DNA of 64,000 nucleotides, taken from the IMG/VR virus record IMGVR_UViG_3300045988_147927, positions 128,001 to 192,000 of that record. One strand, written 5' to 3'. This DNA comes from a virus. The position numbers were made by a program, and so were the translations under genes. Positions 1,884 through 42,085 of this stretch are shown here, piece after piece. Positions within the stretch are counted from its first letter, which is position 1. The number at the start of each line of letters is the position of its first letter. Under the pieces are notes generated by a model. It was not told the origin of the DNA and did not search any database. It worked only from the letters and a program-made list of their open reading frames with translations.

Positions 1884-1890
1884 GGTTTGT

Positions 1891-2742: not shown

Positions 2743-3091
2743 TTCGGATATAGCTGATTTACACAACACTTTATTGAGATTTATTCATTGTGATTGTGTT
2801 TGTAGCAGTGTAGTTGATTCAGAGTCAAGGGAGATTTACTCTTTTACTGATGATATGTATGGTTCTTTTATTATTGAGTACATTCCTTATACTTTAGGTG
2901 GGTACAAAAAAGATTTGATTATTGTTAGGTATCATGAGTTTAATACTATCTATATGTATTATGATGTTATAAAAAAGTGTATCGTCTTTGAGAAGAATAA
3001 TAGAGTATTACATAATATTGATGTTATTGAAGATGATATAAAGTATATTTATAATAAAATCTACAGTATTAAAAATAATATAAATTCGTAA
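2726..3091 (+). CDS. hypothetical protein
   Basis: ORF overlapping the upstream stop; no motif. Confidence 0.4.
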   Translation: MMVLIDSDIADLHNTLLRFIHCDCVCSSVVDSESREIYSFTDDMYGSFIIEYIPYTLGGYKKDLIIVRYHEFNTIYMYYDVIKKCIVFEKNNRVLHNIDVIEDDIKYIYNKIYSIKNNINS

Positions 3092-3098
3092 GTGTATG

Positions 3099-3130
3099 GT
3101 GAGTAATTTCAAAAATTACTCACTTTTTTT
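3099..3130 (+). terminator. rho-independent terminator
   Basis: 11-bp perfect stem gtgagtaattt / aaattactcac, 3-nt loop, T7 run. Confidence 0.75.
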
Positions 3131-3151
3131 GTGTATTTTTAGTTTTTAGTA

Positions 3152-3180
3152 TTTACAAAATATAGAGTGTGTGTTATTAT
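3152..3180 (+). promoter_or_regulatory. sigma70-like promoter candidate
   Basis: TTTACA - 17 nt - TATTAT. Confidence 0.45.
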
Positions 3181-3186
3181 TGGTAC

Positions 3187-3272
3187 ATAAGGAACATTAC
3201 ATAAGTTTACAATTTCATTAGGGTAGTGTTGTAAACTTAACAACGCACAACATATATAGTAATGTTCCTTAT
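3187..3272 (+). promoter_or_regulatory. nested inverted repeat in the adhesin leader
   Basis: 14-bp perfect IR ataaggaacattac / gtaatgttccttat enclosing 10-bp IR taagtttaca / tgtaaactta. Confidence 0.5.
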
Positions 3273-3310
3273 ACCTAACATTTTTAATTTAGTATAAGGA
3301 GATGTGAATT

Positions 3311-13198: not shown

Positions 13199-14057
13199 AT
13201 GAATAGTAGGGTAGAGGATTTATTAGGTTCTTCTAGTTCTTATACTTCCATGACAGATAAAGAGAGAGAATACTTTATAGCACTTCTTAAAGAGGAGATG
13301 CACAAGAGGGAAGAGTCTGGTAAGTATGAGCAGATACGTGATATTGTAAGAATTGAAGAGTGGATTAATTCTGATTATTACATAGGGACAGACCAAAAAA
13401 GTATATACCCATACTGGAAAGATTTTATAGTAGACATATTCAGAGATACTAGAAAAGATAGTGAAAAGATTAATTCCGTCATATTAAGTGGTTCAATCGG
13501 CGTTGGTAAATCAACTGTTGCTGAGTTAATCATGATGCGTAAGATGTATGAGTTGTCTTGTTTTAAAAATATCAATGCTATGTTTAACTTAATGTCTAAA
13601 ACTAATATAATGTTCCTGTATTTTTCAGTAAGTCAAAAACAAGCTGAGCGTACTGGGTTTGGTGAGTTTAGGTCTTTGGTTGACAGTTCTCCTTATTTTA
13701 ATGAGAACTTTTTACGTAATCAAAGATTGTCATCTTTATTAGTGTTTCCAGAGGGTATTAATTTTGCATATGGTTCTAGTGCTAGTGATAGTATTGGTAT
13801 GTCAGTTATATGTTCAATGCTCGATGAAGCAAACTTTTTGGGTGGTAATGGGCCTTCTAATGATAGTGAGAAAGCAACAGATTTATATGCTAATATAGTT
13901 AATAGGTCTAATTCTAGGTTTATTGTTGATGGTGGTGTCAATCATTCATTAAACATTTTAGTTTCATCAGCAACCTTTGAAAATTCTGCTACTGAGCGTC
14001 AAATTAGGTTATCTAGGAATGACCCACATACGATTGTTGCCGCACCAGCTCAATGGG
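13199..14057 (+). CDS. terL: terminase large subunit, exon 1 (ATPase)
   Basis: Walker A GSIGVGKST, Walker B SMLDEANF, coupling motif VSSAT. The ORF runs into a stop at 14065 inside the insertion. Junction is +/- a few nt. Confidence 0.8.
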
Positions 14058-14560
14058 AAAGATAGCAGTATGTAACTCTACATACTGTATAAAAACCCCT
14101 ATTTCATAAGTGATTATGAGATAGCTTGAATTTAAATACTAGGAAATCCTAAAGCTAGTTAAACTACAGCATAATTGGAAACAGTAAGTGCGAATGTTGC
14201 GAAAGTAGAAAGAATTAACTAGATGGCATATGGTGAAATAAAAGCATGTCTTGTGATAAGATATGTCCTAAGTGCTGTAAATAATGGATGTTTAGTTACC
14301 AACTATTACATTTTGTGTAGTAGAGGTTCAACGACTAGGAGATTGAGTCTCCCTGATTAAATGTCAGATAACCTCTATAGGGTAGAGGGAAAGTAAAGCT
14401 ACAAGCATTTATAATGACAAGACATTATAAAAATGGTAGAAGAAAAATATTCACATCTTTTTGTTAAGATGAACAAATAGTCTACGCTTATGTGAAAGCA
14501 TAAGAGGTCTGCTAGTGATAGTAAGACTGCGTTAGAGGTTGCGTTCTAGCGTGAATAAGA
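14058..14560 (+). ncRNA. group I intron ribozyme core (ORF-less part)
   Basis: Shared blocks with the capsid introns: cctaaag, actaca, gttgcgaaagtagaaa, ggtgaaataaaag, gttcaacgact, atagtct + gtgaaagcat hairpin. Confidence 0.65.
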
Positions 14561-14594
14561 TAAATATGTCTAAATTATAATATTACACGTAAAG

Positions 14595-14622
14595 TTGACA
14601 CTCTTAATGTTTTCTATATAAT
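14595..14622 (+). promoter_or_regulatory. near-consensus sigma70 promoter inside the intron
   Basis: TTGACA - 16 nt - TATAAT, upstream of RBS gaggagg and tnpB. Confidence 0.65.
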
Positions 14623-14734
14623 TTAAGTTGTATAGAGAGGAGGTGTCAGCTTGGAATAAAAATTAAATAGTAACGATAACAAAATATATAGGTCAGTTAA
14701 GATTAGGTTATTACCAACAAAAGAGCAAGAGATT

Positions 14735-15877
14735 TTGTTTTGGAAGAGTGTAGGTGTTGCTAGATGGTCTTATAATTACTTTTTATCAGAGAGTTATAGG
14801 GTATATCAAGAATGGTTAGAAGATAAAAGTAAACCAAAGCATATATCTGAGATGGAGGTTAGAAAGTATATTAATAATCATCTTAAAAAGACTACACATA
14901 CATGGCTTAAAGAGGTTGGAAGTAATGTAATGAAACAGGGTGTCAAAGATGCCAACATAGCATTACAGAATTTCTTTAAATATAACAAAGGTTATCCTAA
15001 GTTTAAATCTAAGAAAAGGTCTAAGCCTAGTTTCTATGTTAATTACGAAAGTTTAAAACGTACACCAAATGGATTTCGTGGTGAGAGAATTGGTTATGTT
15101 AAAACTAAGGAATCACTACCTATGATTGGTAAGAATCAAAAATACCGTAGACCTAGAATTAGTTTTGATGGTAGATTTTGGTACTTATCTGTTAGCTTTG
15201 AGGTTAAGAGGTTAGATGTTAAATTATCAGATACTAAGTTAGGTATAGACTTGGGCATTAAAGAGTTAGCTGTTGTTTCTAGTCAGAGTGGTACTGATAT
15301 TAAGAAGTATCATAATATAAATAAAACTTGTGAAGTAAAGAGATTAGAGAAAAAGCTAAAACGTGAGCAACGTAAGTTTTCACGTAAGATTCTTGTACAT
15401 AAAGGTCTTTGTAATAATAAAACTAATCATAAAAAAGAACTAGAATTATGTAAAAACATTCAAAAACAAAAGAGTATAATTCAGAGATTATATAGACGAT
15501 TGTTAAATATCAGGACTAATTATTTACATCAAACAACTACTGAGATAGTGAAAACCAAACCATCTCATATAGTTTTAGAAGATTTGAATGTTAGTGGAAT
15601 GATGAAAAATCGTCATTTATCAAAGTCTATTATGTGTCAAAAATGGTATGAGTTTAGGAGACAGATAGAGTATAAAGCTGAATTATATGGTATTGAAGTT
15701 GTATTAGCAGATAGATTTTATCCTAGTTCTAAGACTTGTAGTTGTTGTGGTAATGTCAAGAGAGACTTAAAATTATCTGACAGAGTATATAGATGTGATT
15801 GTTGTGGTAATGTTGTTGATAGAGATGTCAATGCATCAATCAATTTAGCTAATTATAATATAGAAAGTGTCAAATAA
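14735..15877 (+). CDS. tnpB: TnpB-like RNA-guided nuclease (IS200/IS605 OrfB family)
   Basis: RuvC residues in GIDLGIKE, VLEDLNV, DRDVNASINL. Zn ribbon CSCCGN...CDCCGN. Homology to the second TnpB extends upstream to about 14660 (SVKIRLLPTKEQ), but the RBS-proximal TTG at 14651 is followed by an in-frame TAA. Confidence 0.85.
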   Translation: MFWKSVGVARWSYNYFLSESYRVYQEWLEDKSKPKHISEMEVRKYINNHLKKTTHTWLKEVGSNVMKQGVKDANIALQNFFKYNKGYPKFKSKKRSKPSFYVNYESLKRTPNGFRGERIGYVKTKESLPMIGKNQKYRRPRISFDGRFWYLSVSFEVKRLDVKLSDTKLGIDLGIKELAVVSSQSGTDIKKYHNINKTCEVKRLEKKLKREQRKFSRKILVHKGLCNNKTNHKKELELCKNIQKQKSIIQRLYRRLLNIRTNYLHQTTTEIVKTKPSHIVLEDLNVSGMMKNRHLSKSIMCQKWYEFRRQIEYKAELYGIEVVLADRFYPSSKTCSCCGNVKRDLKLSDRVYRCDCCGNVVDRDVNASINLANYNIESVK

Positions 15878-16063
15878 AAGATACTCTATATATGTACCTA
15901 TCGTTACTAGGGAATTTAAGCCTTTGGGGTGTTATAACAAACAAGAGTAGTTGAAGTTATTTTAACAACGAAATTGAACGTAATGATTAAGGAAGATATA
16001 TCGTGAGGTATATCAAAGTGTAAGTGTGTGATATTTATAATATGTACATATTTATCGTAACGG
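15878..16063 (+). ncRNA. candidate omega-RNA scaffold / intron 3' segment
   Basis: Position immediately 3' of tnpB up to the exon-2 boundary; local hairpins (gatata..tatatc, gttg..caac). Inference from TnpB biology. Confidence 0.4.
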
Positions 16064-17277
16064 ACGTCAAGCCAAACAATTTTAGTAAAAAGTTCTTCTA
16101 TGTATTTAAAGGTTCTAATTACTTAGAGGCTAATATCGTTAATTCTACAGATGATGTAAATAACTTTAGGGTTTCTGAGGGATTAGGGAAGCAGAAGTAT
16201 ATTGATGGATTAGAAGATTATAAATCTATTAATAAGGCTATTGAAGAATTACCTCCACATATGCAGACTAAGTTTTTAAGAGTTCCTGTAGATTTGAGGG
16301 CTGGTTTTGAGACTAACTTATTGAGGTCTTTACAAGATATTGGTGGTGTATCTACAGGCTCACAAGGTAAGCTATTTAGTTCTCCTATGGTATTACAAGA
16401 TTGTGTTGATGAGAATAGGCATCACCCATTCGTTTCTAAAGAGATAATAATTTCTACTGGTGATGATATTCAAGTTAAGGATTATTTAAGAGATGATTTT
16501 AGGTTAAAGTATCCTGAGAGACCTAGATATTTACATATTGACCAATCATTTAGGACAGATAGTACTGGTATATCTAGTGTGTATGTTGATGATATTATAG
16601 AAGAAGATGGTGTTAAGAAGCCTGTTTTTGGTGTTGATTTTATGCTACGTATCAATCCACCTAAATCACCTAAGAAGATAGCTATATATAAGATACGTAA
16701 TTTTGTCATTTATCTTGCTAATACAGTTGGTATGAGGATAGGTAAGTTGACATATGATATATTCAATTCTGAGGAATCAAGACAGATTCTTGAAGAGATG
16801 GGGTTTAATGTTGGTTATTTGTCAGTAGATAGAACTGATAGACCTTACCTTGATTTAGTAGAGATTATGTATGAGAAGAGGATTAAGTTATATGACTATC
16901 CTATTTTGAGGTATGAGTTACTTAATCTTTTACATGATAGGGTTAAAAGGAAAGTAGACCACCCTAAAGTAGTTACAGATGCAGGGTTTGTTGATTATGA
17001 TGGTAAAGGTAATGATGGTGTTACAGGGACTAGGGTAGGTTCTAAGGATGTTGCCGATAGTTTATGTGGTGCTATTCAAAATGCTTTGCAGAGTACTGTT
17101 TCTGATGCAGAGGGGAATAAGGGAACTTTTAATGATTTTCTTATTGCAAATCGTATAGGTTCTTATGTTGGTATAGATACACCTAATGATGTTTCTGTAG
17201 AAGAGTTAATTGATAGACAGATTGATGATATGATAGAAGATATTGAAGTATATGGTATCAATAATTTTAGATATTAA
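16064..17277 (+). CDS. terL: terminase large subunit, exon 2 (nuclease half)
   Basis: Continues exon 1 in frame (...AQW|DVKPNNF...). 859 + 1214 nt = 2073 nt, i.e. 691 codons including the stop. Confidence 0.8.
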
Positions 17278-29867: not shown

Positions 29868-31481
29868 ATGGCTAAAAAACAATTAAAAAAGAGAATATTT
29901 GTACCTACAGGTAATGATTTAGGTAATTTTAATGTTTTTGATTTGCAGCCTGTAGAGTTGACATTTGTAGATTCAGATGAAGGAAATAAAGAGAGCAATT
30001 CTAAAGGTGCTGGTGGTGGTTCTTCTGTACCTGACCCTGTAGATAATAATCCGTTAAGTAAAAGTTCTAGTAAAGACTCTAGTGGTGATGGCTCAAAAGA
30101 TAATAATCCATATAGTAATGGATATGATGAAGATAATAACGGTGATGAGTTTGATAAATCTGAGAGAGATTTAAACAATGATTTATATGGCGATGATTTA
30201 GACAAGGATGAGGCTGAAAAATCTCAGCAAAATAATCAAGATGGTGATGGAGAGGGTTCATCTGGTGGTGAGAGTGGCTCTTCCAGTGCAGGTGGTATGG
30301 GTAGTAATGGTGAGAATGACTTCTCACCACCTAATTATGACAGTAGCATGGCAAATGGTGAGGGTGATGATTCATCAGAAAATAAGTCAGAGATGGAAAG
30401 TGCCTTAGATAATGAGGAAGAGAATAAGTCAGATATATCAAAAGAGAGGTCTAATGAGGTAGATAATCAAAACTCTCAAAACTCTCAAAACTCTCAAAAC
30501 TCTCAAAACTCTCAAAACTCTCAAAACTCACAGAATGGGGATAATTCTCAAAATGGAGATAACTCACAAAATGGTGAAAACTCTCAAAATGGAGATAGCT
30601 CACAAAATGGTGATAGTTCTCAAAATAAGCTAACTGATAGTGATGAATTTCAGAAGGCACATGAGACTAAGAACAATGATTTTGATGATACTAAAGGTAA
30701 AGAGATTGCTGATAAGATGGTAAGAGATGCCGCTAAAAAAGTTCAAGAGGAATTAGATAAGGATGAGACATTAGCAAATACTAATAGTGATTCTTTAGAT
30801 AATTATAAAGACTTCGGTGCTGGTGCTATGACTACTCTATTTAAGAGTACAGGTATGGTAGCTGATTGGAAAGTCAAATTAAATAAATTATTTAGGATGG
30901 CTTTAGGTCAGAGGGTGTTTATGAATCCTGATATGATTAATAAGCGTATTGAAGATGCACCTCCAGGGAGAGAAGATATTGAGTCAACAATGATTAAAGT
31001 TGGTATATTACTAGACTGTTCATCATCTATGGGTGGTTCTGCTTTCAAAAAGGTTATCACGCAGATGGATGCTATGATACGTGCTGATAAGGGTATGAAA
31101 AAAGTACAGTTTTATATTATGCCATTTTCAGAATGGTCTGTAGAAGAGAGCATTAAACTTATGAAGAGGTGTAAAGGTACACAATTAAAGCAGACTTTAT
31201 TGACTTTTGGGCCAAAAGGTTCTACTTATATAACAAATGCTGTTGAGGCATTGATGAGGAAGATTAAGAATCCTGATACTGTTATTGTTATGTCAGACTG
31301 TGAAATATGGGATGATGATGCTTTTGCTAGAAATTCATATTGTAAAAAGTTGGTTACTAAATTCAGAAAACGCTTAATATGGGTTATGCCTAGTAAGAGT
31401 GGCCTAGGTTATATGGCTAAATTCGATAAATTCGCTAAAAAAGAAGATAGGTATTTAGTCTTTAAAGGTGACGGGGATTAA
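29868..31481 (+). CDS. VWA-domain protein with long acidic low-complexity N-terminal half (CobT-like architecture)
   Basis: MIDAS GILLDCSSSMGG; later VIVMSDCE; preceding D/E/S/N/G-rich region. Confidence 0.7.
   Translation: MAKKQLKKRIFVPTGNDLGNFNVFDLQPVELTFVDSDEGNKESNSKGAGGGSSVPDPVDNNPLSKSSSKDSSGDGSKDNNPYSNGYDEDNNGDEFDKSERDLNNDLYGDDLDKDEAEKSQQNNQDGDGEGSSGGESGSSSAGGMGSNGENDFSPPNYDSSMANGEGDDSSENKSEMESALDNEEENKSDISKERSNEVDNQNSQNSQNSQNSQNSQNSQNSQNGDNSQNGDNSQNGENSQNGDSSQNGDSSQNKLTDSDEFQKAHETKNNDFDDTKGKEIADKMVRDAAKKVQEELDKDETLANTNSDSLDNYKDFGAGAMTTLFKSTGMVADWKVKLNKLFRMALGQRVFMNPDMINKRIEDAPPGREDIESTMIKVGILLDCSSSMGGSAFKKVITQMDAMIRADKGMKKVQFYIMPFSEWSVEESIKLMKRCKGTQLKQTLLTFGPKGSTYITNAVEALMRKIKNPDTVIVMSDCEIWDDDAFARNSYCKKLVTKFRKRLIWVMPSKSGLGYMAKFDKFAKKEDRYLVFKGDGD
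30468..30624 (+). repeat. in-frame tandem repeats (9-nt x6, then 18-nt x5)
   Basis: caaaactct x6 encoding NSQ repeats, then caaaatgg(a/t)ga(t/a)a(a/g)(c/t)tc(a/t)-type units encoding NGDNSQ variants. Confidence 0.9.
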
Positions 31482-31554: not shown

Positions 31555-31730
31555 AAACATATTAATTTTAAATATTAATTTAATATATAGTTTTAGTAAT
31601 AACTCATCAACAGTTTGTAATATTATTTATAATAATATAGATATTTGTTGTAGTTAATGTTTTATTATTAAAAAGCCAAAATATTGATTTTGATTGAAAG
31701 AACATCTTCTTAAAAGTTTCTTAGTTATAA

Positions 31731-31759
31731 TTGATATTTATACACTTCTTTGGTATTAT
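31731..31759 (+). promoter_or_regulatory. sigma70-like promoter candidate for tnpB-2
   Basis: TTGATA - 17 nt - TATTAT. Confidence 0.4.
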
Positions 31760-31810
31760 AATAGATAATTAATGCTATCTATTAGTAGTATGGAAAAGAG
31801 GTGAGATATC

Positions 31811-32908
31811 TTGAATAAAAGTTTTAAAGTTAGGATTTATCCTACAAAAGAGCAATGTGTTCTTTTAGAAAAGACCTTTGGTGCAAACAGGTTTGTTTAT
31901 AATTACTTTCTCAACTTAAAAAGTAAGTTGTATGAGTTTTATAAAATAAATCTTAGTTACAACAATTCTTCTAAAGTGCTAACAGAATTAAAGAAAACTA
32001 AAACTTGGCTTAAAGAGGTTGATAGTAAATCTTTAATTCAAACACTTAGGGATTTAGATAGAGCATATCAAAACTTTTTTAGTGGTAGAGGTAAATACCC
32101 TAATTTTAAAAAGAAACAAGATAAAAACTCTTATCGTACTAATCAAAGCATTAAATTAGTCAATTCTTTTATTTCTATTCCAAAGGTAGGTCTACTTAGA
32201 TATAAAGATAAGTGTAAATTTGATGATAAACATATTCTTAAAATTTATAATGTAACAATATCTAAGACATCTAGTGGAAAATATTATGCTAGTATATCAG
32301 CTGAGGTCTATATACCTAATTTTGAGAAAACCAATCAAAGTTGTGGTATAGACTTAGGTTTAAAAGATTTTGCAATTTTAGATACTGGTGAAAAGATAAA
32401 GAATCCTAGAATATTAAAGCATCTTGAAGTTAAGTATAGAAAATTAGCTAAAGCTGTTTCAAGAAAAGTTAAAGGTTCAGCTAATTATCAAAAAGCTAAG
32501 TTAAAGTTAGCAAGGTTTCATGAGAAAGTTACGAATATTCGTAAAGATTTTCTTCATAAATTATCTACTAACTTAGTAAAAACTTATGATATTATTTGTG
32601 TTGAGACTCTTAAAGTTAAAAATATGATGAAAAATCATACATTAGCAAAATCATTTCAAGATGTAGCACATTCTGAGTTTATAAGACAGTTAGAATATAA
32701 AGCTAAGTGGTATGGTAAAACTATCTCTAAAATAGATAGATTTTATCCATCAAGTCAGGTATGTTCTAATTGTGGATATAAAAACAAAGATGTTAAAAAT
32801 CTTAGTATTCGTGAGTGGATTTGTCCAGAGTGTGGGGTTCATCATGATAGAGATATCAATGCATCAATTAATATTTTGAATGAGGGATTACGACTTATAG
32901 AAGTGTAA
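31811..32908 (+). CDS. tnpB: TnpB-like RNA-guided nuclease (IS200/IS605 OrfB family)
   Basis: TTG start after aaagaggtgag. [11 protein letters not shown]-terminus. RuvC residues in [25 protein letters not shown]. Zn ribbon CSNCGY...CPECGV. Confidence 0.85.
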
Positions 32909-33033
32909 ATATATAATTATAACCGTGGGACACATGGGGATAGCCTATTGTCTGGTTGTAAGACTCTTTTAACATAGTATTAAAAGAGCGAACCGTTGGG
33001 TAGGAACTTCAATGACTTATAAGTCATGAGAGG
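32909..33033 (+). ncRNA. candidate omega-RNA scaffold / right end of the tnpB element
   Basis: Hairpin ctctttta..taaaagag (32964-32988) and 16-nt perfect palindrome atgacttataagtcat (33012-33027), directly abutting the next gene. Confidence 0.4.
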
Positions 33034-34860
33034 ATGTCAGAGGGGATAGATATTTATATTATGGGTAATTTAGAGAAACAATACTTATCAGATACGAGTG
33101 TTTTTGATAGGTCGCTGTATGAGAGTTATGAGCCTGATACAAAATTTGATGGTTCAAATAATGCAGTGTTGCGTATTATCCGAGGACCATTAGCAGAGTG
33201 GGATAAGTTAAATCGTAATGGTAGGTTATATTCTGAGAAGTTGTGGGATAGGGTGTTAGAAACACCGTATGTTAAAGAACAGCTCATGTATAATACACTT
33301 TTTGGTGAGGCTAATCACCCAGTAGATAGAATGGAAGTAGATTTTGAGAGGGTTTCTCATAGAATTGCTAAGATGTGGAAAGTGCCACAATCAAATCAAA
33401 TTTATGGTGAGATTCATATCTTGGATACTCCTTTTGGTCGGATTATCAATACATTGTATGAAGCTGGTGGTGTTATTGGATATTCATCAAGGGCTGGTGG
33501 TGCTTTACATCAACGTAAGGATTATATTGAAGTAGATGAAAATCAATATAATTTTGTTACATTTGATGCTGTTCCATTCCCGTCTGTACAATCTGCTAGA
33601 CCTAGTGATTTTGTAACAGAGGGTGCTGAAATTCAAAAACACGCTTTAACAAAAGATGTTCATAATGCTCTTTTTAAGATTATTAAAGAGTGTGATGAAA
33701 AAGACTTTAATAATATTAAGTCTTTTATAAATAGCATTGAGGGTTATGATTTAACACCTGAAAAGTTATTACTTGAAAGTGTTGAAAATATAACTTTTAA
33801 TAATGGTGATGAAGAAGTTATTGTCCGAGACACTATTGAGGACAATAAGGAAGAATCGCTTGTAGATACTTTACAAAGTACTTTACAGTCAGTTAAGGCT
33901 CAAAAACAATCTTTAGAGAAAGAGAATAGAGGTTTAAAAGATAGCTTAAATAATGCTTTAAATAAAATCTCAACTGTTCTACAGGATGCTAAAGATAAAG
34001 AGGTTGCAACACAAGATGAGATTTCAAATCTAAAAGACACTATTGCAAGAAAAGAAGTTAAAATCAATGAGTTGCAAGAAGAGATTGATATGTTACAAGA
34101 TGAGCTTGATGGTTTACAAACTGTCGAGGAGGCTTGTAAGGCTTTGAAGTATCAAAACTCTACTTTACTTAAAGAGGGTGTAGAGGATAACAATAGGGAA
34201 TTAGAATCGAAGTTATCTGTTAAAGAGGAAGAAAACAAATCTTTGTTGAAAGATAATAAAAATCTTTCAAAAGAAAAAGAAGAGTTACATTCTGAATTAA
34301 AAGAGGCTTATGGTGAGATTGCTGATACTGTTAAAGATATTAATAGTAAGGATGCTATTATTAAGGCACAACAAGATACTATTAATTCTTTAAAGAGTGA
34401 TGTTAAGTCTACACAAGAAGAATTAGATAAGGTAGATGAAGATTATCAAAGTGCTTTAGATAGACGTGATAATCAAATTGAGCAGTATGAGGAAAGAATT
34501 AAAGAGTTAGAAGATAAGATTAGGGAATTGAGTTCAGAGGTAGAAGATATCGATGAGTCATATTCAAAATCAAAATCATACACTAAATCTTTAAAAAATG
34601 ACTTAATTTCAGTTATTGCTGGTAATTATGGTTTAACAAATGAAAGTGTTAAAGCTAAGTTACCTGTAGGGTTTGGTAAGTCAGAAATTTATACTGTGTG
34701 TGAATCGATGAGTCGCAATAGTAGTAAAAATTTAATAAGCAATTCTATTGTAGATACTCAAATTGTTAATGAATCAACTAAAAACAGGGTTACTGATATT
34801 CATTCTAACAATAGGGGTAGTAGATTAAGTGAAATAATCTCTACAAATAGAAGAGGTTAG
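33034..34860 (+). CDS. prohead protease (T4 gp21/U9-like) fused to a coiled-coil scaffolding region
   Basis: LNRNGRLYSEKLW and LFGEANHP resemble gp21 motifs. About 300 aa of heptad-rich E/K/L sequence follows. Start is ambiguous (33034 or 33061). Confidence 0.6.
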   Translation: MSEGIDIYIMGNLEKQYLSDTSVFDRSLYESYEPDTKFDGSNNAVLRIIRGPLAEWDKLNRNGRLYSEKLWDRVLETPYVKEQLMYNTLFGEANHPVDRMEVDFERVSHRIAKMWKVPQSNQIYGEIHILDTPFGRIINTLYEAGGVIGYSSRAGGALHQRKDYIEVDENQYNFVTFDAVPFPSVQSARPSDFVTEGAEIQKHALTKDVHNALFKIIKECDEKDFNNIKSFINSIEGYDLTPEKLLLESVENITFNNGDEEVIVRDTIEDNKEESLVDTLQSTLQSVKAQKQSLEKENRGLKDSLNNALNKISTVLQDAKDKEVATQDEISNLKDTIARKEVKINELQEEIDMLQDELDGLQTVEEACKALKYQNSTLLKEGVEDNNRELESKLSVKEEENKSLLKDNKNLSKEKEELHSELKEAYGEIADTVKDINSKDAIIKAQQDTINSLKSDVKSTQEELDKVDEDYQSALDRRDNQIEQYEERIKELEDKIRELSSEVEDIDESYSKSKSYTKSLKNDLISVIAGNYGLTNESVKAKLPVGFGKSEIYTVCESMSRNSSKNLISNSIVDTQIVNESTKNRVTDIHSNNRGSRLSEIISTNRRG

Positions 34861-34926: not shown

Positions 34927-35724
34927 ATGAAAACTAATATTTACGAACAATATCGTCCATTATTGGAATCTTGGAAAGGTTATACTGATGTTGTAAAACA
35001 GCACGTAGATGGCTATTCTGATGTAGAAGCTACACAACTATCTATGTTGCTTGAAAATACTAAATCTGAATTGGAAATGACAAAAGGTCGCATGATGAAT
35101 GGTACAGCTATTCATGAAGGCACTGATATTTCTATGGTTAATACATTTACATCTAATGTATTTGATATTATCACAGCTGTCATGCCAAATTTGATTGCGA
35201 ATGATATCGTCAGTGTTCAACCTCTTGACCGTAGGAATGGACAAGTATTCTTCTTGAAATTCACTTATGGTAATAATAAAGGTGCTATTAAAGCTGGTAC
35301 TGATATGATTTCTTCTCAACGTGGTTTCGTTGGTGGTGATTATAGTGGTGAACACGTAAGTGGTGAATCATTGACAATCACTTCTAATGCAGTATCTCAA
35401 AAAGTATTGCATACTCCAATTAAACCTGGTACATTCCGTTTGACTTCACCTGATAAAATCGGCGATGAATTATTGGATGTTCCTAATGCAGATGGTATCA
35501 CAGGTACTATTACAGATACTGCACCTACTGGTTTGGGTGCTGGTACTGTAAACTATGTTACTGGTGAAATTACATTGACTGGTGTAACAGTTGCACATCT
35601 AGAAGCTGATTTTGACTATGACCAAAATAGTTTCGATGCTCCTGTAGACCAAGTTGATGTACGTGTGGTTTCTGAGCCTGTAGTTGCTCGTCCACGTAAA
35701 TTAAAATCCGTATATATGTTCGAT
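34927..35724 (+). CDS. major capsid protein, exon 1
   Basis: Follows the protease-scaffold gene. The exon end cgaT can pair with gtcg 36 nt into the intron (G.U at the splice site). Confidence 0.7.
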
Positions 35725-36921
35725 AAAACTTGTGCATAATAGTTTTCATTTATGCAATGTCGCCTTATCATAGAAATATGGTGAGTGATAACTCTACGAA
35801 TTGCTGGAAGTTCCTAAAGTATAACACACTACAACGTAACTCGAAAGGGTAAGCGTGAAAGTTGCGAAAGCAGAAAAAAGTTGTTATAATACCCTATGAT
35901 GAAATAAAAGGTATTTTAGTATTATACTAAAATATTTCTAAGGGGGATAATAAGAATGGATAATCAGCAGTCAGTGGTTACATATATTGAATGTCCTTAT
36001 TGTGGTAAGAAATTAAAATTTTTAAATGCAACTCATCTTAAACGTCATGGCAAAACAGTTAGTGATGTTAAATCAGAGTTTCCAAATCAATCTTTAGCCT
36101 CTCAGTCTTATAGAGATAGGCAGAGAGAAGATACAAGAGATAGGTGGGAAGAGGAAGGTTATAGAGATAGAGTTTCTGCTACATTAAAAATTACACAAAA
36201 TAGGGAAGATATAAAAGAGAAAATAGCTAATGGGAATAGAGTTAAATGGTCTAATGAAGATTATAAAAGGAGGGTATCTAAGAAGATAAGAGATACTCAA
36301 AATAGACCAGATAAGAAATTACATATGTCTAAGTTATCTTCAATGGCTTTAACAGATGGAACTATAGGTGATATATGGAAGCATGTTACTTATGGTGATA
36401 AAGTGTTGTGTTTGAGGAGTTCATTAGAGTTAAAGACTTTTAATTACTTAGTTGAATTAAATATTCCTTTTGAGTATGAAAGTATTAGATATGAGTATAA
36501 GATTGATGGTTTTAGTTTATTTCATGTAATTGATTTTTATTTATCTCAATATAATTTAATTATAGAGGTTAAACCTAAGTATAAATTTAAAGAAGGGTTT
36601 ATTAAAAATCACAATGAAGAGTATCGAAAAATCATCGCAAAACGTGATGGTGGTATTGCTCTCGGGTATAACTATATTTTCATAACAGAGGATAATTTAG
36701 ACAGTAAAGACTCTTTTTATAAAGCTATTAGTAAGTATATGTAGTCAAAGATTCAACGACTAACCCAGACATGGGTGTAGGTTATTATGAAAGATAGCCG
36801 AAGTGTAGAGTACCTAAGTTACAATAGGTAATATGGTAAAGATATAGTCTGTTCTCATGTGAAAGCATGAGTTTTGAATTGTTAAACTTTCATTAAATAC
36901 AATTCAATTTGATACAATTAG
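35725..36921 (+). mobile_element. group I intron 1 with endonuclease ORF
   Basis: Blocks aattgctggaag, cctaaag, actacaacgtaa, gggtaagcgtgaaagttgcgaaagcagaaaa, gatgaaataaaag, then ORF, then attcaacgacta, gatatagtct + gtgaaagcatgag hairpin. Ends in G. Confidence 0.75.
35956..36744 (+). CDS. intron-encoded PD-(D/E)XK-type homing endonuclease with N-terminal Zn-finger
   Basis: RBS aggggga. CPYCGKKLKFLNATHLKRHG. C-terminal core ...VIDFYL...LIIEVKPK. Confidence 0.6.
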   Translation: MDNQQSVVTYIECPYCGKKLKFLNATHLKRHGKTVSDVKSEFPNQSLASQSYRDRQREDTRDRWEEEGYRDRVSATLKITQNREDIKEKIANGNRVKWSNEDYKRRVSKKIRDTQNRPDKKLHMSKLSSMALTDGTIGDIWKHVTYGDKVLCLRSSLELKTFNYLVELNIPFEYESIRYEYKIDGFSLFHVIDFYLSQYNLIIEVKPKYKFKEGFIKNHNEEYRKIIAKRDGGIALGYNYIFITEDNLDSKDSFYKAISKYM

Positions 36922-37019
36922 GTTGCATACGATTTAAAAATGTCATTCGGCTTAGATATGGATACAGTTATCCTAAAAGCTACGAGTGGTGAAATTGGTT
37001 ACGAAATTGACAATGAGAT
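36922..37019 (+). CDS. major capsid protein, exon 2 (33 codons)
   Basis: VAYDLKMSFGLDMDTVILKATSGEIGYEIDNE-. The exon end gagaT pairs with gtctc in the intron. Confidence 0.6.
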
Positions 37020-38202
37020 TAACGTAGATAATGCTATTATGTTGTTAGTAGCTTAAATAATACATAGTCTCCGTACATAGTGATATGTGCGAAAAATAAT
37101 CTATTTAATTGCTGGAAAGTCCTAAAGCTAACTAAACTACAACGTAATCATGAAATATGGGTAAGCGTGAGAGTTGCTAAAGCAGAAAAAATTAGTTAGA
37201 TGACATAAGGTGAAATAAAAGCTATAATATGATATAATTATAGTCCTAAGTGTTGTAATAATGGATAATCAGCCGCTAAGTCCTTAATAGGGAAAAGTTC
37301 AACGACTATCCGAAAGCAACAAAAGTTGTGAGTAGATAATGAGAATTATCAAAAGGAGTACGGCTCTAGTGAGTGGGTGAGAATCCCTTAAATGGAAATG
37401 GTAGATGTGTACAAAGGATGGTTTAAAATTACATATAGAATGTCCTATATGTCATAAGAAGTATAAGATGATATCAAATAATCATCTTGTTAAAAAACAT
37501 AATATTACATTAGAAGAGTTTAGAGATATCTATAAAGGTTATCCTACAGAGAGTGAGTATTTACAAAAGGTTAGAGTGGATGTTGGATTAGCAATAGGCT
37601 CTAAAGAGAGTGTTAAGTCTTTTAGAAGTGCTAAAGCTAAGAGACAGCATGAGAGTGGAAATCTCAATCCGTCTAAAACACTTAATTATTTGTGGGAAAA
37701 TAAAAAAAGATTGGATGCGTGAAAGACAGCATATAGGTAATAGTACTGAAGCTGAGTTTAAACGTAAATCAGAAGTTTCTAGACGTTTATGGTCTTGTCC
37801 TGAGTGGGTTAATTCTCGTAGGGATAGGAATGTGAGATGTGAATTAAATGGTTATGTTTTATATGTTAGAAGTTCTTATGAAAAGGTAGCTTGCCAGTTC
37901 TTAGATTCTTTGGGTGTTAAATTTGAGTATGAAACAAAAGTATTCAAATATTACTATGATGGAAGATTTAGAAATTATATTGTTGATTTATATCTTCCTT
38001 TACATGATGTTTATTTAGAGGTAAAACCTAAAGACCTAGAATCAGATGATAAAAATAAAGCTAAAATACAGTCTGTAATTGATAGTGGTAATATAATTAC
38101 TTATGTTGATGAGGATTGGATATGTTCTATAGATGATTTTAAACATCATTTGAGTAAGTACATAAAGATATAGTCTGCTCTATGGTGAAAGTCATAGAAG
38201 GG
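37020..38202 (+). mobile_element. group I intron 2 with frameshifted endonuclease ORF
   Basis: Same conserved blocks as intron 1, but the ORF sits after the gttcaacgacta block. Ends ...agaagG. Confidence 0.7.
37405..38173 (+). pseudogene. PD-(D/E)XK-type homing endonuclease, split by a frameshift in an A7 run
   Basis: ORFs 37405-37722 and 37610-38173 together parallel the intron-1 enzyme (CPICHKKYKMISNNHLVKKH ... VDLYL...YLEVKPK). The frames switch at aaaaaaa, 37702-37708. Confidence 0.6.
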
Positions 38203-38596
38203 TATAATGGAAACGATTATACTCGTAACAAAAGGTATGCAAGACCTTTTAAAAATTGCTGGTAGCCAATCTACTTGGAATAAACTTCCTGAGTATAAAG
38301 GTCAAGACGTTAAAACACATGAAGCTACATTGTTTAATGCTATCAATGATGCGTCCAATACAATTCTTGGTAACACTAAACGCTATGAAGCTACATTTAT
38401 TATCTGTGGTAAAAATGCCGCTACATACATTGAATCCTTGAACACAAATATCGGTCAAGTACGTGAAATCTTCAAACGTGTGTCTACAAATGGTATCGTT
38501 GGTGGTCCACACTTGGTAGGTATCTTGGATGAAAAATATAAAGTATATAAAAATCCATACTACCCTGATAATGAAATCTTGGTAGGTGCTAAGGGT
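38203..38596 (+). CDS. major capsid protein, exon 3
   Basis: Corresponds to track ORF 38207-38617. The exon end gggT pairs with gccc in intron 3. Confidence 0.65.
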
Positions 38597-38991
38597 GAAC
38601 ATATTAATGTTGCTTAATGATAAACATTTTGCCCTTGTAAAACCCTGTGAATTGCTGGGACGTGCTAAAGACTGTTATACCAAAGTGTAAAAATTAACAG
38701 TATGAGTTGTGGGTTAGCACTCCACAACGATGAAATGTACAATCAGCAGCCTTATATATTTAAAGATAGAATATATGGGGTTCATCGACTATCGAAAACA
38801 GAGATGTAAAGTAAGACTGGTAACTCGGTCAAGGTTATTATAGGTTACATCTTTTAAGTGAGTAGAGTAGGAATTAAAGTTCCGAAGTGCAGGGAGTTAT
38901 TACTGATAACCTAAAGGTAATAACTATGATATAGTCAGTGCTAACAAGAAATATGTTAGTTATTTAATTTAATAGTCAGTTAAAATGTTAG
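38597..38991 (+). ncRNA. group I intron 3 (ORF-less)
   Basis: aattgctggga, gctaaag, gttcatcgacta, gatatagtca blocks. Ends in G before gaaatgttc. Confidence 0.65.
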
Positions 38992-39177
38992 GAAATGTTC
39001 ATTGAAGCTGGCTATATTTATGCTCCATACTTGCCTTTATTCGCAAGTCAATTATTGGTTGATGCAGACTTCAAAGCACAACGTGGGTTCTGTACACTAT
39101 ACGCCAAAAAAGCAGTAAATAAATATATGTATCATCGTTTGACTTTGGTAGATAACAAACAAGTAGCCGCTAACTAA
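38992..39177 (+). CDS. major capsid protein, exon 4
   Basis: EMFIEAGYIYAPYLPLFASQ..., a capsid-like C-terminus. The four exons sum to 798+98+394+186 = 1476 nt, in frame. Confidence 0.65.
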   Translation, partial: EMFIEAGYIYAPYLPLFASQLLVDADFKAQRGFCTLYAKKAVNKYMYHRLTLVDNKQVAAN

Positions 39178-39366: not shown

Positions 39367-40143
39367 TTGGAGGGTATATTGATAGTGAAAGATATTTTAG
39401 CTAAAGATGGTATATTGTGTGGTATTCCTAGTGATAGGAGTTGTAATTTGATTGTATTGTTCTCTGGTGGATTTGATTCTACTGCATTATTACATATGGC
39501 AGTTAATACTAAGAAGAAATATAATACTATAAAAACAGTATATGCTTTGTATGTTAAAAGTAATCTATTAGATGAAGGGAAAGTTAAGTTAGAGGAAAAT
39601 CATGTAAAAAAGTTTATTTCTTATATTAATCAAGATGAGGAGATTGTAAAGTTAGTTACTTATGAGAGTTCATTTAGTGATTTAGAAGAGTATGCTTATA
39701 GTGAAAATTCATATGACTTAATATTTATTAATGCTATTAATTCAGTAGTACATATGATGGGTGGTGCTGATGTTAATATAGTATTGAATGGCTCATTAGA
39801 TGGAGATTCAAGGGTATATCATCTACCATATTATAAAAGTATGGTTGAAGGCTTCAATAAAGAGTATAGGGGTGTAGATGTGGTTATGATGTTCCCACTT
39901 ATGCAGATTAATAAACCTAGAATTATAGATTATTTACTCAACAACAATTTATATCAGTATTGTACTTGTTGTGAGAGTCCTAATAGTGATGTCTTTTGTA
40001 ATAGTTGTAAGGAGCATTTAAGGGCTTTATATGAATTATTACTTATCTATGATGTGTATGGTGATATTGAGCCTAAAGATGGAAATGAAGAGTTTGTTCG
40101 TGGTGAAATAAATAGGATACATGGGGTTGAGTCTGATGAGTGA
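39367..40143 (+). CDS. PP-loop ATPase, QueC-like
   Basis: VLFSGGFDSTALLH (SGGxDS). C-terminal Cys cluster YCTCCESPNSDVFCNSCKEHL. Alternative start GTG 39385. Confidence 0.55.
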   Translation: MEGILIVKDILAKDGILCGIPSDRSCNLIVLFSGGFDSTALLHMAVNTKKKYNTIKTVYALYVKSNLLDEGKVKLEENHVKKFISYINQDEEIVKLVTYESSFSDLEEYAYSENSYDLIFINAINSVVHMMGGADVNIVLNGSLDGDSRVYHLPYYKSMVEGFNKEYRGVDVVMMFPLMQINKPRIIDYLLNNNLYQYCTCCESPNSDVFCNSCKEHLRALYELLLIYDVYGDIEPKDGNEEFVRGEINRIHGVESDE

Positions 40144-42085
40144 TACTAACGATAAAAGACACTTATGGGGTGGTAAGGGTAAAAGAACATATAATAATGG
40201 TGTGATAGCTAAAAGATATTTTGAAGGTGAGCAACCTGAAGGATTTGTACTTGGAATGTTACCACGTACTGATGAGCAAAAGGCTAAAAGTAATGCTAAG
40301 AGGGTTAAAACTACAATAGAGAAGTACGGTGTTTCTAATGTAGCACAGTCTAAAGATGTGTATGAAAAGATGTTAGAGACAAATCTTAAAAAGTATGGTG
40401 TTGAGCATCCACAGACTCTTGAATCTCAAAAAGAAAAGGTAAAGAAAACAAATCTAGAGAGATATGGTACTACTAATGGTAAGGTGTTAAAACCAAAAGT
40501 AGATAAGCCTAAAAAAGAGAAAAAAGTAAAATTACCTAAAGTTAAAGATACTCGTAAAGGACATTACTATAATAATAGTATCATCACTAGAAAAATTAAA
40601 GAGGGTGATGTTATACCTGATGGGTTTGTTAGAGGAATGTTATTAAGTGATGAACTTAAAAAGAATAGGTCAGCTAAGGCTAAAGAGACATTTCTCAAAA
40701 AATATGGTGTAGATAACCCTGCTAAGTCTAAAGAGGTACTAGTTAAGATACAGAAAACAAATTTAGATAGGTATGGTGTTGAATGTTCTGCACAATCAGA
40801 AGTTGTTAAAGAAAAGATAAAAGCTACAAATCTTAAAAAATACGGTGTTGAGTATTCTTTTCAAGCAGAGGAAGTTAAGGATAAAATCAAAGCTACAAGT
40901 CTAGAGAGGTATGGTGTAGAAAATCCATCTAAGTCAGAAGTTATTAAGAGTAAGATTGTTGAATCTAATCGTAAGAATTTAGGTGTAGATTATCCTATGC
41001 AGTCTAAGGATGTGATGGATAAGTCTAGGGCAACTTCTTTTGAAAAGTATGGAACTGAGTATCCTAATCAGTCAGAAATTGTTAAATCTAAGATTGACGC
41101 TAGTACTTTAGAGCATTATGGTGTTAATCGTGCTTGTAAGTTAGATGAATTTAAGCAAAAAATCGTAGATACTAATAGAGAACGGTATGGTGTAGATTAT
41201 ACTTGTTTAATATATAGTGGTAAGTTAAAGGGTAATGACAGTAGTTACAACCGTTCTTTTGCTGAGTTATTAGATATTAATAACATTACATATGAGAGAG
41301 AGTTTTTATTACAAAAATATTCCTATGATTTTAAAGTAGGGAATACTTTGATTGAGATAGACCCCACTGCTACTCATAATACTTATTTCAGCCCTTATGG
41401 TGATAATAGAATTGATGTTAATTATCATAGAGATAAGACTAAGTTAGCTAAAGATAATGGATATAGTGTAATTCATATATTTGAATGGGATGATATTAAT
41501 AAAGTTATGCAATTATTGAAAAATAGGGTTACTGTATATGCTAGAAAATGTGAAGTAAGGATGGTTAGTGATGTAGATACTGGTAATTACTTAGATACAT
41601 ACCATTTACAGGGTACTTGTAGAGGACAGAAAATTAGATTAGGTCTATATTATGATAATCAATTAGTATCATTAATGACTTTTGGTAAATCACGTTTTAA
41701 TAAAAATTGTGAATATGAATTATTGAGATATTGTGCTAGTTACAATGTAGTAGGTGGTGCTGAGAAGTTATTTAAGTACTTTGTAGATAATTATAAACCT
41801 AGCAGCATTGTGTCATATTGTGATACATCAAAATTTAGTGGTAAGGTGTATGATACTTTGAGTTTTGAGTTTATTAAGACAAACAAACCTAGAAAGCATT
41901 GGTATAGTATGAAAGAGAAACGTCATATTACTGATGGATTATTATTAAGTCAGGGATATGATAGATTATTTAAAGAGAATCATGGTAAAGGCACTTCTAA
42001 TGAAGAGTTAATTCTTAGTAGAGGGTATTTACCTGTATATGATTGTGGTCAATCAACTTATATTTGGAGAAGTGATAATGTCTAG
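40136..42085 (+). CDS. free-standing homing-endonuclease-like protein with KYGV repeats
   Basis: YNNG..(x)..P(E/D)GFV.GM motifs x2. At least 8 repeats of about 32 aa (KYGV-NP-QS-EV-K-K-T). PD-(D/E)XK-like core YSYDFKVGNTLIEIDPTATHN. Conserved ~170-aa C-terminal domain. Confidence 0.5.
   Translation: MSDTNDKRHLWGGKGKRTYNNGVIAKRYFEGEQPEGFVLGMLPRTDEQKAKSNAKRVKTTIEKYGVSNVAQSKDVYEKMLETNLKKYGVEHPQTLESQKEKVKKTNLERYGTTNGKVLKPKVDKPKKEKKVKLPKVKDTRKGHYYNNSIITRKIKEGDVIPDGFVRGMLLSDELKKNRSAKAKETFLKKYGVDNPAKSKEVLVKIQKTNLDRYGVECSAQSEVVKEKIKATNLKKYGVEYSFQAEEVKDKIKATSLERYGVENPSKSEVIKSKIVESNRKNLGVDYPMQSKDVMDKSRATSFEKYGTEYPNQSEIVKSKIDASTLEHYGVNRACKLDEFKQKIVDTNRERYGVDYTCLIYSGKLKGNDSSYNRSFAELLDINNITYEREFLLQKYSYDFKVGNTLIEIDPTATHNTYFSPYGDNRIDVNYHRDKTKLAKDNGYSVIHIFEWDDINKVMQLLKNRVTVYARKCEVRMVSDVDTGNYLDTYHLQGTCRGQKIRLGLYYDNQLVSLMTFGKSRFNKNCEYELLRYCASYNVVGGAEKLFKYFVDNYKPSSIVSYCDTSKFSGKVYDTLSFEFIKTNKPRKHWYSMKEKRHITDGLLLSQGYDRLFKENHGKGTSNEELILSRGYLPVYDCGQSTYIWRSDNV

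What the first reader, a model, noticed from the sequence alone, without database searches (positions are those of the whole stretch)
35725..38991. One ribozyme family with three cargo states and two cargo positions
The terL insert and capsid introns 1-3 share core blocks but differ in cargo: TnpB (terL), an intact PD-(D/E)XK endonuclease (intron 1), a frameshifted copy (intron 2), and none (intron 3). In intron 1 the ORF lies before the (a/g)ttcaacgacta block. In intron 2 it lies after that block, and its stop overlaps the gatatagtct block. In the terL element the cargo follows the whole core. This looks like a snapshot of cargo gain, loss and swap within one intron lineage.
Basis: partly seen in the sequence, partly recalled or inferred. 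Interest (0 to 1): 0.65.

Follow-up and report, generated by a model that had tools for sequence, protein, structure and literature searches.

The report
Capsid-gene introns plus a terminase IStron
A large phage's capsid gene is split by three self-splicing group I introns at different stages of carrying, breaking or lacking a homing-endonuclease gene, and its terminase gene carries a known intron-transposon hybrid (IStron); this is a clear population-level example of known selfish-element dynamics, not a new mechanism.

Summary
The T4-type capsid gene (34927..39177) is split by three group I introns: 35725..36921, 37020..38235 and 38597..38991. terL carries a 2006-nt insert (14058..16063).

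- Intron 1 has an intact 262-aa zinc-finger plus PD-(D/E)XK endonuclease gene in the P6 loop.
- Intron 2 has a paralogue (about 32% identity, not a copy) in the P8 loop. One extra A in an A-run breaks its frame.
- Intron 3 has no ORF.

- **Gain and loss:** strongly supported. About 43 related IMG/VR contigs show empty sites, ORF-bearing, broken-ORF and ORF-less alleles for each intron.
- **One lineage with cargo swap:** not supported.
  - The two named blocks are generic group I consensus (J6/7-P7 and J8/7-P7').
  - Introns 1, 2 and the terL ribozyme share a specific P4-P6 domain, but it is common in Firmicutes phage introns.
  - They are not each other's nearest relatives: intron 2 is 0.85 identical to the Clostridium phage c-st IStron and 0.77 to intron 1.
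  - Intron 3 is a reduced variant.
- **terL insert:** an IS607-type "group B" IStron. It sits after TGGG, ends in CGG, and holds its IS part after P9.2. Its TnpB has a stop at codon 3.

Verdict: new members of known kinds.

The parts
34927..35724 (+). Major capsid protein (Gp23-like) exon 1
   Evidence: Pfam Gp23 E 4.9e-16. The junction ..YMFD|VAYDL comes from the alignment with intronless homologues and intronless relatives.
35725..36921 (+). Group I intron 1 (1197 nt, IA2-like), with the ORF in the P6 terminal loop
   Evidence: P1 CGAU|A/UGUCG has the U.G pair, and the last base is G. Stems P1-P9 were located. CM R1 gives 155 bits. The ORF-less allele in L038 scores 53.8 bits on Rfam RF00028, above the gathering score of 50.
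35956..36744 (+). Intact 262-aa homing-endonuclease gene: zinc finger, DUF7487-like repeats and a PD-(D/E)XK nuclease
   Evidence: Full-length 97%-identical homologues exist. D193, E204 and K206 are invariant. The AF2 model has pLDDT 82, and its top PDB matches are I-Bth0305I, Vsr and TnsA. The ATG lies in the conserved ATGGATAATCAGC block (J5/4-P4'). The stop TAG lies in the P6 3' strand.
36922..37019 (+). Capsid exon 2 (98 nt)
   Evidence: Alignment A1; junctions at CDS nt 798 and 896 in relatives.
37020..38235 (+). Group I intron 2 (1216 nt, IA2-like), with the ORF in the P8 loop
   Evidence: P1 GAGAU|UA/UAGUCUC; P3 AUCUAUU/GGUAGAU; P8 UGUAC..GUACA. CM R1 gives 174 bits. The ORF-less allele in L044 scores 52.3 bits on RF00028, and Rfam's alignment gives the same P3' and P8.
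37405..38173 (+). Frameshifted endonuclease gene of intron 2. Frame 1 runs 37405..37722; the second frame is open from 37610 and carries the rest of the protein to 38173.
   Evidence: The two halves match the N-terminal and C-terminal parts of the intron 1 protein at about 32% identity. There is one extra A in the run 37702..37708 compared with intact 255-aa alleles in L022, L026, L042 and L045. L039 has an independent 2-nt deletion.
38236..38596 (+). Capsid exon 3
   Evidence: Homologue alignment; junction at CDS nt 1257 in relatives.
38597..38991 (+). Group I intron 3 (395 nt, no ORF, reduced P5 extension)
   Evidence: P1 AAGGGU/GCCCUU; P3, P4, P6, P7, P8 and P9 located. RF00028 gives 30.1 bits, E 6e-6, below gathering. 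CM R1 gives 41 bits with two P5 sub-helices missing. Relatives carry a 1223-1229-nt allele that is 96-99% identical and has an ORF of 308 codons stop-to-stop (about 276 aa from the first Met) in the P6 loop.
38992..39177 (+). Capsid exon 4
13199..14057 (+). terL exon 1
   Evidence: tblastn finds continuous large-terminase homologues. Intronless alleles read CAATGGGACGTG.
14058..16063 (+). IS607-type (group B) IStron, 2006 nt. The IA2 ribozyme P1-P9.2 spans 14058..~14558, followed by the IS part.
   Evidence: It is inserted after TGGG, ends in ..AACGG, and has a GAAUAA motif at 14553..14558 before the IS part. CM R1 gives 163 bits. The same element sits at the same site only in L202 and L203, and the site is empty in about 40 relatives.
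14651..15877 (+). TnpB (ORF B) of the IStron, with a premature TAA at codon 3 (14657..14659)
   Evidence: Pfam OrfB_IS605 and Cas12f1-like_TNB. 49% aa identity to the phage c-st IStron OrfB. Sister copies in L203 and L191 read TTG GAA GAA / TTG AAA GAA at the start.
15921..15994 (+). RAGATH-18 RNA motif, probably the omega-RNA scaffold of the IStron
   Evidence: Rfam RF03064, 55.7 bits, above the gathering score of 44.9. A similar sequence follows the c-st TnpB. The assignment as omega RNA is an inference.
16064..17277 (+). terL exon 2

Best explanation
The region holds three independent mobile group I introns of the IA2 type in the major capsid gene. Each sits at its own site and has its own site-specific paralogue of one homing-endonuclease family (zinc finger, repeat modules, PD-(D/E)XK nuclease). 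Each is caught at a different stage of the homing-endonuclease life cycle:
- intron 1 is intact,
- intron 2 is freshly frameshifted,
- intron 3 has no ORF.

The inferred mechanism is as follows. The ribozyme removes itself from the mRNA, so the capsid protein is made. In mixed infections the endonuclease cuts intron-less alleles, and repair copies the intron in. Once a site is fixed, the endonuclease gene decays and is deleted from its loop (P6 or P8) without harming the ribozyme.

The terL insert is a different, already described kind of element: an IS607-type (group B) IStron. An IA2 ribozyme carries a TnpB/omega-RNA transposon after P9.2 and splices after a G. In this genome its TnpB is probably dead.

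All four ribozymes belong to a broad IA2 subfamily common in Firmicutes phages. They are relatives, but they are not one local lineage that exchanged cargo.

Shown here: sequence, structure, allele polymorphism and homology. Inferred: actual splicing, endonuclease cleavage and homing.
For: Introns and structure:
- Exon junctions come from intronless homologues and relatives.
- All core stems are present, and P3 and P8 covary between intron types.
- The P4-P6 domain has 42 pairs, 21 with compensatory changes.
- ORF-less alleles of introns 1 and 2 pass the RF00028 gathering score.

Cargo polymorphism:
- ORF-bearing and ORF-less allele pairs differ by internal deletions of 752, 742 and about 830 nt in the P6 or P8 loop.
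- Independent inactivations exist: +1 A in the window, a 2-nt deletion in L039, and a broken intron 1 ORF in L022.
- All 64 intron ORF pieces fall in one superfamily with 8 site-specific subfamilies.
- The nuclease is PD-(D/E)XK.

IStron:
- Its defining features are met.
- Paralogous copies lie in the portal and VWA genes of relatives.

Relatedness:
Against: - No RNA data: splicing is inferred.
- The window copies of introns 1 and 2 and the terL core do not hit RF00028, even at E 10. Only their ORF-less alleles do.
- The A-run frameshift could be a homopolymer sequencing error or a slippage site.
- Whether the ORF-less alleles are ancestral or derived was not polarised.
- The tree rests on 114-171 columns and is poorly resolved.
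Confidence: 0.85

Rival explanations
1. The four ribozymes are one intron lineage that diversified inside this phage. It exchanged its cargo (endonuclease for TnpB) and moved the cargo from one loop to another.
For: - Introns 1, 2 and terL share a specific 171-position P4-P6 domain (155-174 bits; covariation).
- In a first neighbour-joining tree, most introns of this phage group cluster apart from most outside sequences.
- The site-0a intron of relatives has a core about 0.87-0.88 identical to intron 2 over the 171 model columns, yet carries its ORF in P6 rather than P8.
- The ORF-less site-1 intron looks mosaic between the intron 1 and intron 2 types.
Against: - Intron 2 is closer to the c-st IStron (0.85) and the Listeria LPJP1 rpoB intron (0.80) than to intron 1 (0.77).
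- terL is 0.77 identical to c-st and 0.68 to intron 1.
- A clade of intron 1 + intron 2 + terL was recovered in 0 of 300 bootstraps.
- The IStron shares its ends, IS position and TnpB with c-st.
- No relative carries the terL ribozyme with an endonuclease or without cargo at that site.
- Intron 3 lacks two P5 sub-helices and has no blastn relatives.
Confidence: 0.12
2. The shared blocks are chance or generic motifs, and the inserts are not functional ribozymes. On this view they are decayed insertions, and the capsid gene is a pseudogene or an assembly artefact.
For: - GATATAGTC and TTCANCGACTA alone are not enriched.
- No Rfam group I hit at gathering score in the window.
Against: - All exons join in frame to a 480-aa protein that is collinear with intronless homologues.
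- The same introns recur in dozens of independent contigs with conserved, covarying stems.
- ORF-less alleles pass the Rfam gathering score.
Confidence: 0.02

Closest known systems
Phage IA2 group I introns with loop-encoded homing endonucleases (T4 td/I-TevI with the ORF in P6a; the three introns in one gene of Staphylococcus phage Twort; Bacillus phage SP-15 capsid intron with a Phage_endo_I-like ORF). The T4 and Twort examples are recalled from my own knowledge, not tested here.
   Same: - Self-splicing IA-type core with P7.1/P7.2.
- ORF looped out of a peripheral stem (P6 or P8).
- Several introns in one essential phage gene.
- SP-15 also has a capsid intron with an endonuclease I-like ORF.
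   Different: - The endonuclease family here (zinc finger + DUF7487-like repeats + PD-(D/E)XK) is not one of the well-studied GIY-YIG, HNH or LAGLIDADG families.
- The population shows at least seven insertion sites in one capsid gene.
Group B (IS607-type) IStrons: BcISt1, CbISt4 of Clostridium botulinum phages c-st and D-1873, CboIStron (PMC4227781; bioRxiv 10.1101/2023.11.20.567912)
   Same: - IA2 ribozyme at the 5' end.
- IS part after P9.2, following a GAAUAA motif.
- Insertion after a GG-ending site (TGGG).
- 3' end CGG, with splicing after G.
- TnpB 49% identical to the c-st copy.
- No ORF A.
- Multi-copy in the population.
   Different: - It sits in terL, portal and VWA genes of a T4-like phage.
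- The intron starts AAAG rather than with U.
- The window copy has a nonsense codon in TnpB.
I-Bth0305I and T7 endonuclease I-like PD-(D/E)XK homing endonucleases
   Same: - Best structural match of the nuclease domain is I-Bth0305I (TM 0.64 on the target).
- E..D..ExK catalytic pattern as in T7 endonuclease I (the pattern comparison is from my own knowledge).
- Weak Pfam Phage_endo_I hits.
   Different: - Only 23% identity.
- No sequence-level PDB hit.
- Different N-terminal DNA-binding part.
Homing-endonuclease life cycle (invasion, fixation, degeneration, loss, re-invasion; the Goddard and Burt model, cited from my own knowledge)
   Same: Empty, intact, degenerate and ORF-less alleles coexist at each site.
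   Different: It is seen here in a phage population and at several sites of one gene at once.

Membership tests
Group I intron (Rfam RF00028) | Scores at or above the family gathering score (50 bits) | tested here: inconclusive
   - Window copies: intron 3 scores 30.1 bits. Introns 1, 2 and terL give no hit.
- ORF-less alleles of intron 1 (L038) and intron 2 (L044) score 53.8 and 52.3 bits.
Group I intron (Rfam RF00028) | Conserved core P3-P4-P6-P7-P3'-P8-P7' with J6/7 and J8/7, and P3/P7 forming a pseudoknot | tested here: met
   All stems were found in order in all four. P3 and P8 differ in sequence but stay complementary. Rfam's alignments agree.
Group I intron (Rfam RF00028) | 5' exon ends in a U paired to G of the guide sequence, and the intron ends in G | tested here: met
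   - Introns 1-3: U|...G, with P1 of 5-7 bp.
- terL: ends in G but follows a G, as in group B IStrons.
Group I intron (Rfam RF00028) | Self-splicing activity | not testable with these tools
   No RNA data. In-frame exon joining is the only indirect support.
Subgroup IA2 | Extra hairpins P7.1/P7.2 between P7 and P3', and an extended P9 | tested here: met
   A 45-100-nt insert with hairpins lies between P7 5' and P3' in all four. The detailed P9.0-9.2 folding was not modelled.
Group B (IS607-type) IStron | Inserted after a GG-ending site; 3' terminus CGG; splice after G | tested here: met
   CAATGGG|AAAG...AACGG|ACGTC, against empty alleles reading CAATGGGACGTG. Criteria from PMC4227781.
Group B (IS607-type) IStron | IS component downstream of P9.2 after a GAAUAA-type motif, carrying ORF B (TnpB) | tested here: met
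   GAATAA at 14553..14558, then TnpB with OrfB_IS605 and TNB domains. 49% identity to the c-st ORF B.
Group B (IS607-type) IStron | Serine recombinase ORF A (optional; many copies lack it) | tested here: not met
   There is no ORF between the ribozyme and TnpB. This is the same delta-ORF A state as CbISt4, so it does not exclude membership.
Group B (IS607-type) IStron | Active TnpB/omega-RNA nuclease | tested here: not met
   A TAA at codon 3 of the window copy removes the native N-terminus. RAGATH-18 RNA is present. Activity itself is not testable here.
PD-(D/E)XK homing endonuclease | D...(D/E)xK catalytic motif on the restriction-endonuclease-like fold | tested here: met
   D193, E204 and K206 are invariant. 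The top fold matches are I-Bth0305I, Vsr, TnsA and RecE. A homologue carries PF05367.
PD-(D/E)XK homing endonuclease | Cleaves the intron-less allele and drives homing | not testable with these tools
   Only indirect support: site-specific subfamilies and presence/absence polymorphism.

The most novel reading that the evidence does not exclude
Within this roughly 200-kb phage lineage, one IA2 ribozyme chassis has been captured repeatedly and independently: by an endonuclease gene in P6, by one in P8, and by an IS607 transposon after P9.2. Intron cores at different sites would recombine with each other. The hints are a near-identical core with its ORF in P6 at one site and in P8 at another, and the mosaic ORF-less site-1 intron. 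If true, this population would be a natural system in which to watch ribozyme-cargo reassortment and the birth of IStrons from phage introns.
Probability: 0.2. Interest if true: 0.6.

Novelty: new member of a known kind. Interest (0 to 1): 0.4.

Why it matters
The locus and its roughly 43 metagenomic relatives give an unusually complete natural series for the homing-endonuclease life cycle. Empty, intact, broken and deleted states occur at several sites of one essential phage gene. The same phages also carry an RNA-guided (TnpB) IStron built on a related ribozyme.

This allows a direct comparison of two mobility strategies for group I introns. It also provides candidate new site-specific PD-(D/E)XK endonucleases. 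It does not reveal a new mechanism.

Tried and rejected
- **Rfam on the window.** Neither the gathering search nor the E<=10 search found a group I hit for introns 1, 2 or terL. The cause is the ORF inserts and the long P5 extension, since the ORF-less alleles do hit.
- **Close relatives in GenBank phages.** Megablast found none. Intron 3 has no blastn relatives at all, and nhmmer with the P3-P6 profile missed it.
- **Intron 3 junction.** My first guess from distant homologues (38602/38998) was wrong. Intronless relatives and the guide sequence GCCCUU place the intron at 38597..38991.
- **P3' and P8 of intron 2.** I first placed them inside the 3' end of the ORF. The ORF-less allele disproved this. 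P3' is GGTAGAT just before the ATG, and the ORF sits in the P8 loop.
- **terL 5' splice site.** I first looked for a site after a U (14063). Intronless alleles and the group B IStron rule place it after G 14057.
- **First motif-anchored harvest of cores.** It was too permissive, giving 1139 mostly false hits. I replaced it with nhmmer and a covariance model.
- **Sequence search of the PDB with the endonuclease.** It found nothing useful.
Full report
**What the window is.** The window comes from a T4-like phage of a low-GC host. It has no close relative among GenBank phages. The best capsid match is 36% aa identity, to Bacillus phage HSE3. The region of the finding is the Gp23-type major capsid gene (Pfam Gp23).

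**Exon and intron boundaries.** I aligned the gene with intronless homologues and with intronless relatives from IMG/VR, and used the internal guide sequences. This gives four exons and three introns.

| Segment | Coordinates |
|---|---|
| Exon 1 | 34927..35724 |
| Intron 1 | 35725..36921 |
| Exon 2 | 36922..37019 |
| Intron 2 | 37020..38235 |
| Exon 3 | 38236..38596 |
| Intron 3 | 38597..38991 |
| Exon 4 | 38992..39177 |

The exons join in frame to a 480-aa protein.

**Are they ribozymes?** Rfam's group I model does not reach its threshold anywhere in the window.
- Intron 3 scores 30 bits when searched alone.
- The natural ORF-less alleles of intron 1 (L038) and intron 2 (L044) score 53.8 and 52.3 bits, above the gathering score of 50.
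- Rfam's alignments give the same helices that I derived by hand.
- Every intron has P1 with the U.G pair, P3, P4, P6, P7, P8 and P9 in order, and ends in G. P3 and P8 have different sequences in every intron type yet remain fully complementary.
These are the Rfam consensus letters for group I introns in general, so they say nothing about a special lineage.
- Hairpins between P7 and P3' (P7.1/P7.2) place all four in the IA2-like group.

**Cargo and its position.**
- *Intron 1.* The 262-aa ORF (35956..36744) sits in the P6 terminal loop. Its ATG lies in the conserved core block ATGGATAATCAGC (J5/4-P4'). Its TAG lies in the 3' strand of P6.
- *Intron 2.* The ORF (37405..38173) sits in the P8 loop. 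Its ATG overlaps P3' (GGTAGATG), and its TAG is the TAG of the P7 3' strand.
- *Relationship of the two proteins.* They are homologous along their whole length but only about 32% identical. Intron 2 therefore carries a paralogue, not a copy.
- *Protein architecture.* There is an N-terminal CPxC zinc finger (weak MucR-like hits), repeat modules (DUF7487-like, as annotated on homologue P0007 and found in the neighbouring 654-aa protein), and a C-terminal nuclease.
- *Nuclease domain.* D193, E204 and K206 are invariant. Pfam Phage_endo_I hits are weak. An AlphaFold model (pLDDT 82) has I-Bth0305I, Vsr, TnsA and RecE as its best PDB matches, all PD-(D/E)XK enzymes.
- *Frameshift.* Compared with intact 255-aa alleles in four relatives, the window has one extra A in the run 37702..37708. 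Relative L039 has a different 2-nt deletion.

**Population evidence.** IMG/VR holds about 43 contigs with the same capsid gene at 72-100% aa identity. Several are about 200 kb long.
- Some relatives have no capsid intron at all. Others have up to five or more.
- Insertion sites lie at CDS nt 270, 290, 798, 810, about 849, 896 and 1257.
- Each window intron exists in several states:

| Intron | ORF-bearing allele | Broken ORF | ORF-less allele |
|---|---|---|---|
| 1 | 1197 nt | L022 | 432 nt |
| 2 | 1176-1216 nt, intact | window, L039 | 454-482 nt |
| 3 | 1223-1229 nt, ORF in the P6 loop | L041 (ORF split in two) | 392-395 nt (window, L009) |

- The ORF-less alleles differ from the ORF-bearing ones by clean internal gaps of 752, 742 and about 830 nt inside the loop.
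- All 64 intron ORF pieces form one superfamily with eight subfamilies. Each subfamily is tied to one site or intron type.
- This is the homing-endonuclease life cycle, caught at several sites of one gene.

**The terL element.** terL is 13199..14057 + 16064..17277.
- Intronless alleles read CAATGGGACGTG. The window has CAATGGG|AAAGAT...CGTAACGG|ACGTC.
- The signature is insertion after a GG-ending site, a CGG 3' end, splicing after G instead of U, an IA2 ribozyme at the 5' end, and the IS part after P9.2 behind a GAAUAA motif. This is the published signature of group B (IS607-type) IStrons, which include elements of Clostridium botulinum phages c-st and D-1873 (PMC4227781).
- The c-st element has the same layout. 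Its TnpB is 49% identical, and its ends are GAGG|T...CAACGG|.
- A RAGATH-18 RNA (15921..15994) follows TnpB and is probably the guide-RNA scaffold.
- The window copy has GAA changed to TAA at codon 3 of TnpB. Copies in relatives are intact there.
- The element is at this terL site only in L202 and L203. About 40 relatives are empty.
- Paralogous copies lie in the portal gene (L191) and the VWA gene (L038, L044, L045).
- The element behaves as a transposon-like unit. No relative shows the terL ribozyme with another cargo or with none.

**One lineage?** Introns 1, 2 and the terL ribozyme share a specific P4-P6 domain with a long P5 extension. It has 42 pairs, 21 of them with compensatory changes.
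- A covariance model of this domain finds exactly those three in the window, plus intron 3 at 41 bits with two sub-helices missing.
- The same domain occurs in 340 GenBank phage records: Staphylococcus, Listeria, Clostridium, Enterococcus and others.
- Identities on 114 common columns:

| Pair | Identity |
|---|---|
| Intron 1 - intron 2 | 0.77 |
| Intron 2 - terL | 0.78 |
| Intron 1 - terL | 0.68 |
| Intron 2 - c-st IStron | 0.85 |
| Intron 2 - Listeria LPJP1 rpoB intron | 0.80 |
| terL - c-st IStron | 0.77 |

- A clade of the three window ribozymes appeared in 0 of 300 bootstrap trees. terL grouped with the other IStron copies in 52%.
- The 3' halves (P7.1-P9) of introns 1, 2, 3 and terL also differ.
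- The four are therefore members of one broad subfamily, not a local lineage that swapped cargo.
- Two hints of local reshuffling remain. First, the site-0a intron of relatives has a core about 0.87-0.88 identical to intron 2 over the 171 model columns but carries its ORF in P6. Second, the ORF-less site-1 intron looks mosaic.

**Verdict.** These are new members of known kinds: phage IA2 introns with loop-encoded homing endonucleases, and a group B IStron. Their value is as a rich natural data set rather than as a new mechanism.

Noticed in passing
window 31664..33040 (TnpB 31811..32908): A second TnpB element without any ribozyme. Its HTH, OrfB_IS605 and TNB domains are intact, and it is 35% identical to the IStron TnpB. 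It lies between the VWA gene and the prohead protease gene, and it is absent from the 97%-identical relative L022.
   Followed up: partly
window 14657..14659: The IStron TnpB has a TAA at codon 3. Sister copies in L203 and L191 have GAA there. The next start is a TTG at 14735, which would remove the first strand of the protein.
   Followed up: yes
L191 7301..9297 (= window 17807/17808, portal gene); L038/L044/L045 ~1400..3450 (= window ~31002..31032, VWA gene): Paralogous IStron copies sit in two other genes of relatives: 88% nucleotide identity to the terL copy in L191 and 73-79% in L038/L044/L045. Both sites are empty in the window.
   Followed up: partly
L008-L050 (capsid gene of relatives): Relatives have further capsid introns at CDS nt 270, 290, 810 and about 849. 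L045 has at least five introns, while L010-L012 and L018-L021 have none. The 1700-nt inserts at site 1 contain two ribozyme cores in tandem, separated by a few exon bases.
   Followed up: partly
L192-L204, L189-L191 (terL of relatives): The terL genes of relatives carry other introns that the window lacks: near aa 98 (about 400 or about 1300 nt) and near aa 102-135 (about 1160 nt).
   Followed up: no
L038 7160..7591 versus window 35725..36921: The ORF-less site-1 intron is 93% identical to window intron 1 in its 3' part but only 83% in its 5' part. There its P5 extension resembles intron 2. This may reflect recombination between intron cores.
   Followed up: partly
window 40121..42085: A free-standing 654-aa protein just downstream of the capsid gene carries four DUF7487 repeats. 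This is the same repeat module annotated on a homologue of the intron endonucleases. It also matches PHROG homing-endonuclease families.
   Followed up: no
window 39367..40143: A QueC-like PP-loop protein lies directly after the capsid gene. It may point to deazaguanine DNA modification.
   Followed up: no
window 14595..14622: A TTGACA-16-TATAAT promoter-like sequence and a GGAGG ribosome-binding site precede TnpB inside the IStron. They were read by eye and not scanned with the promoter tool.
   Followed up: no
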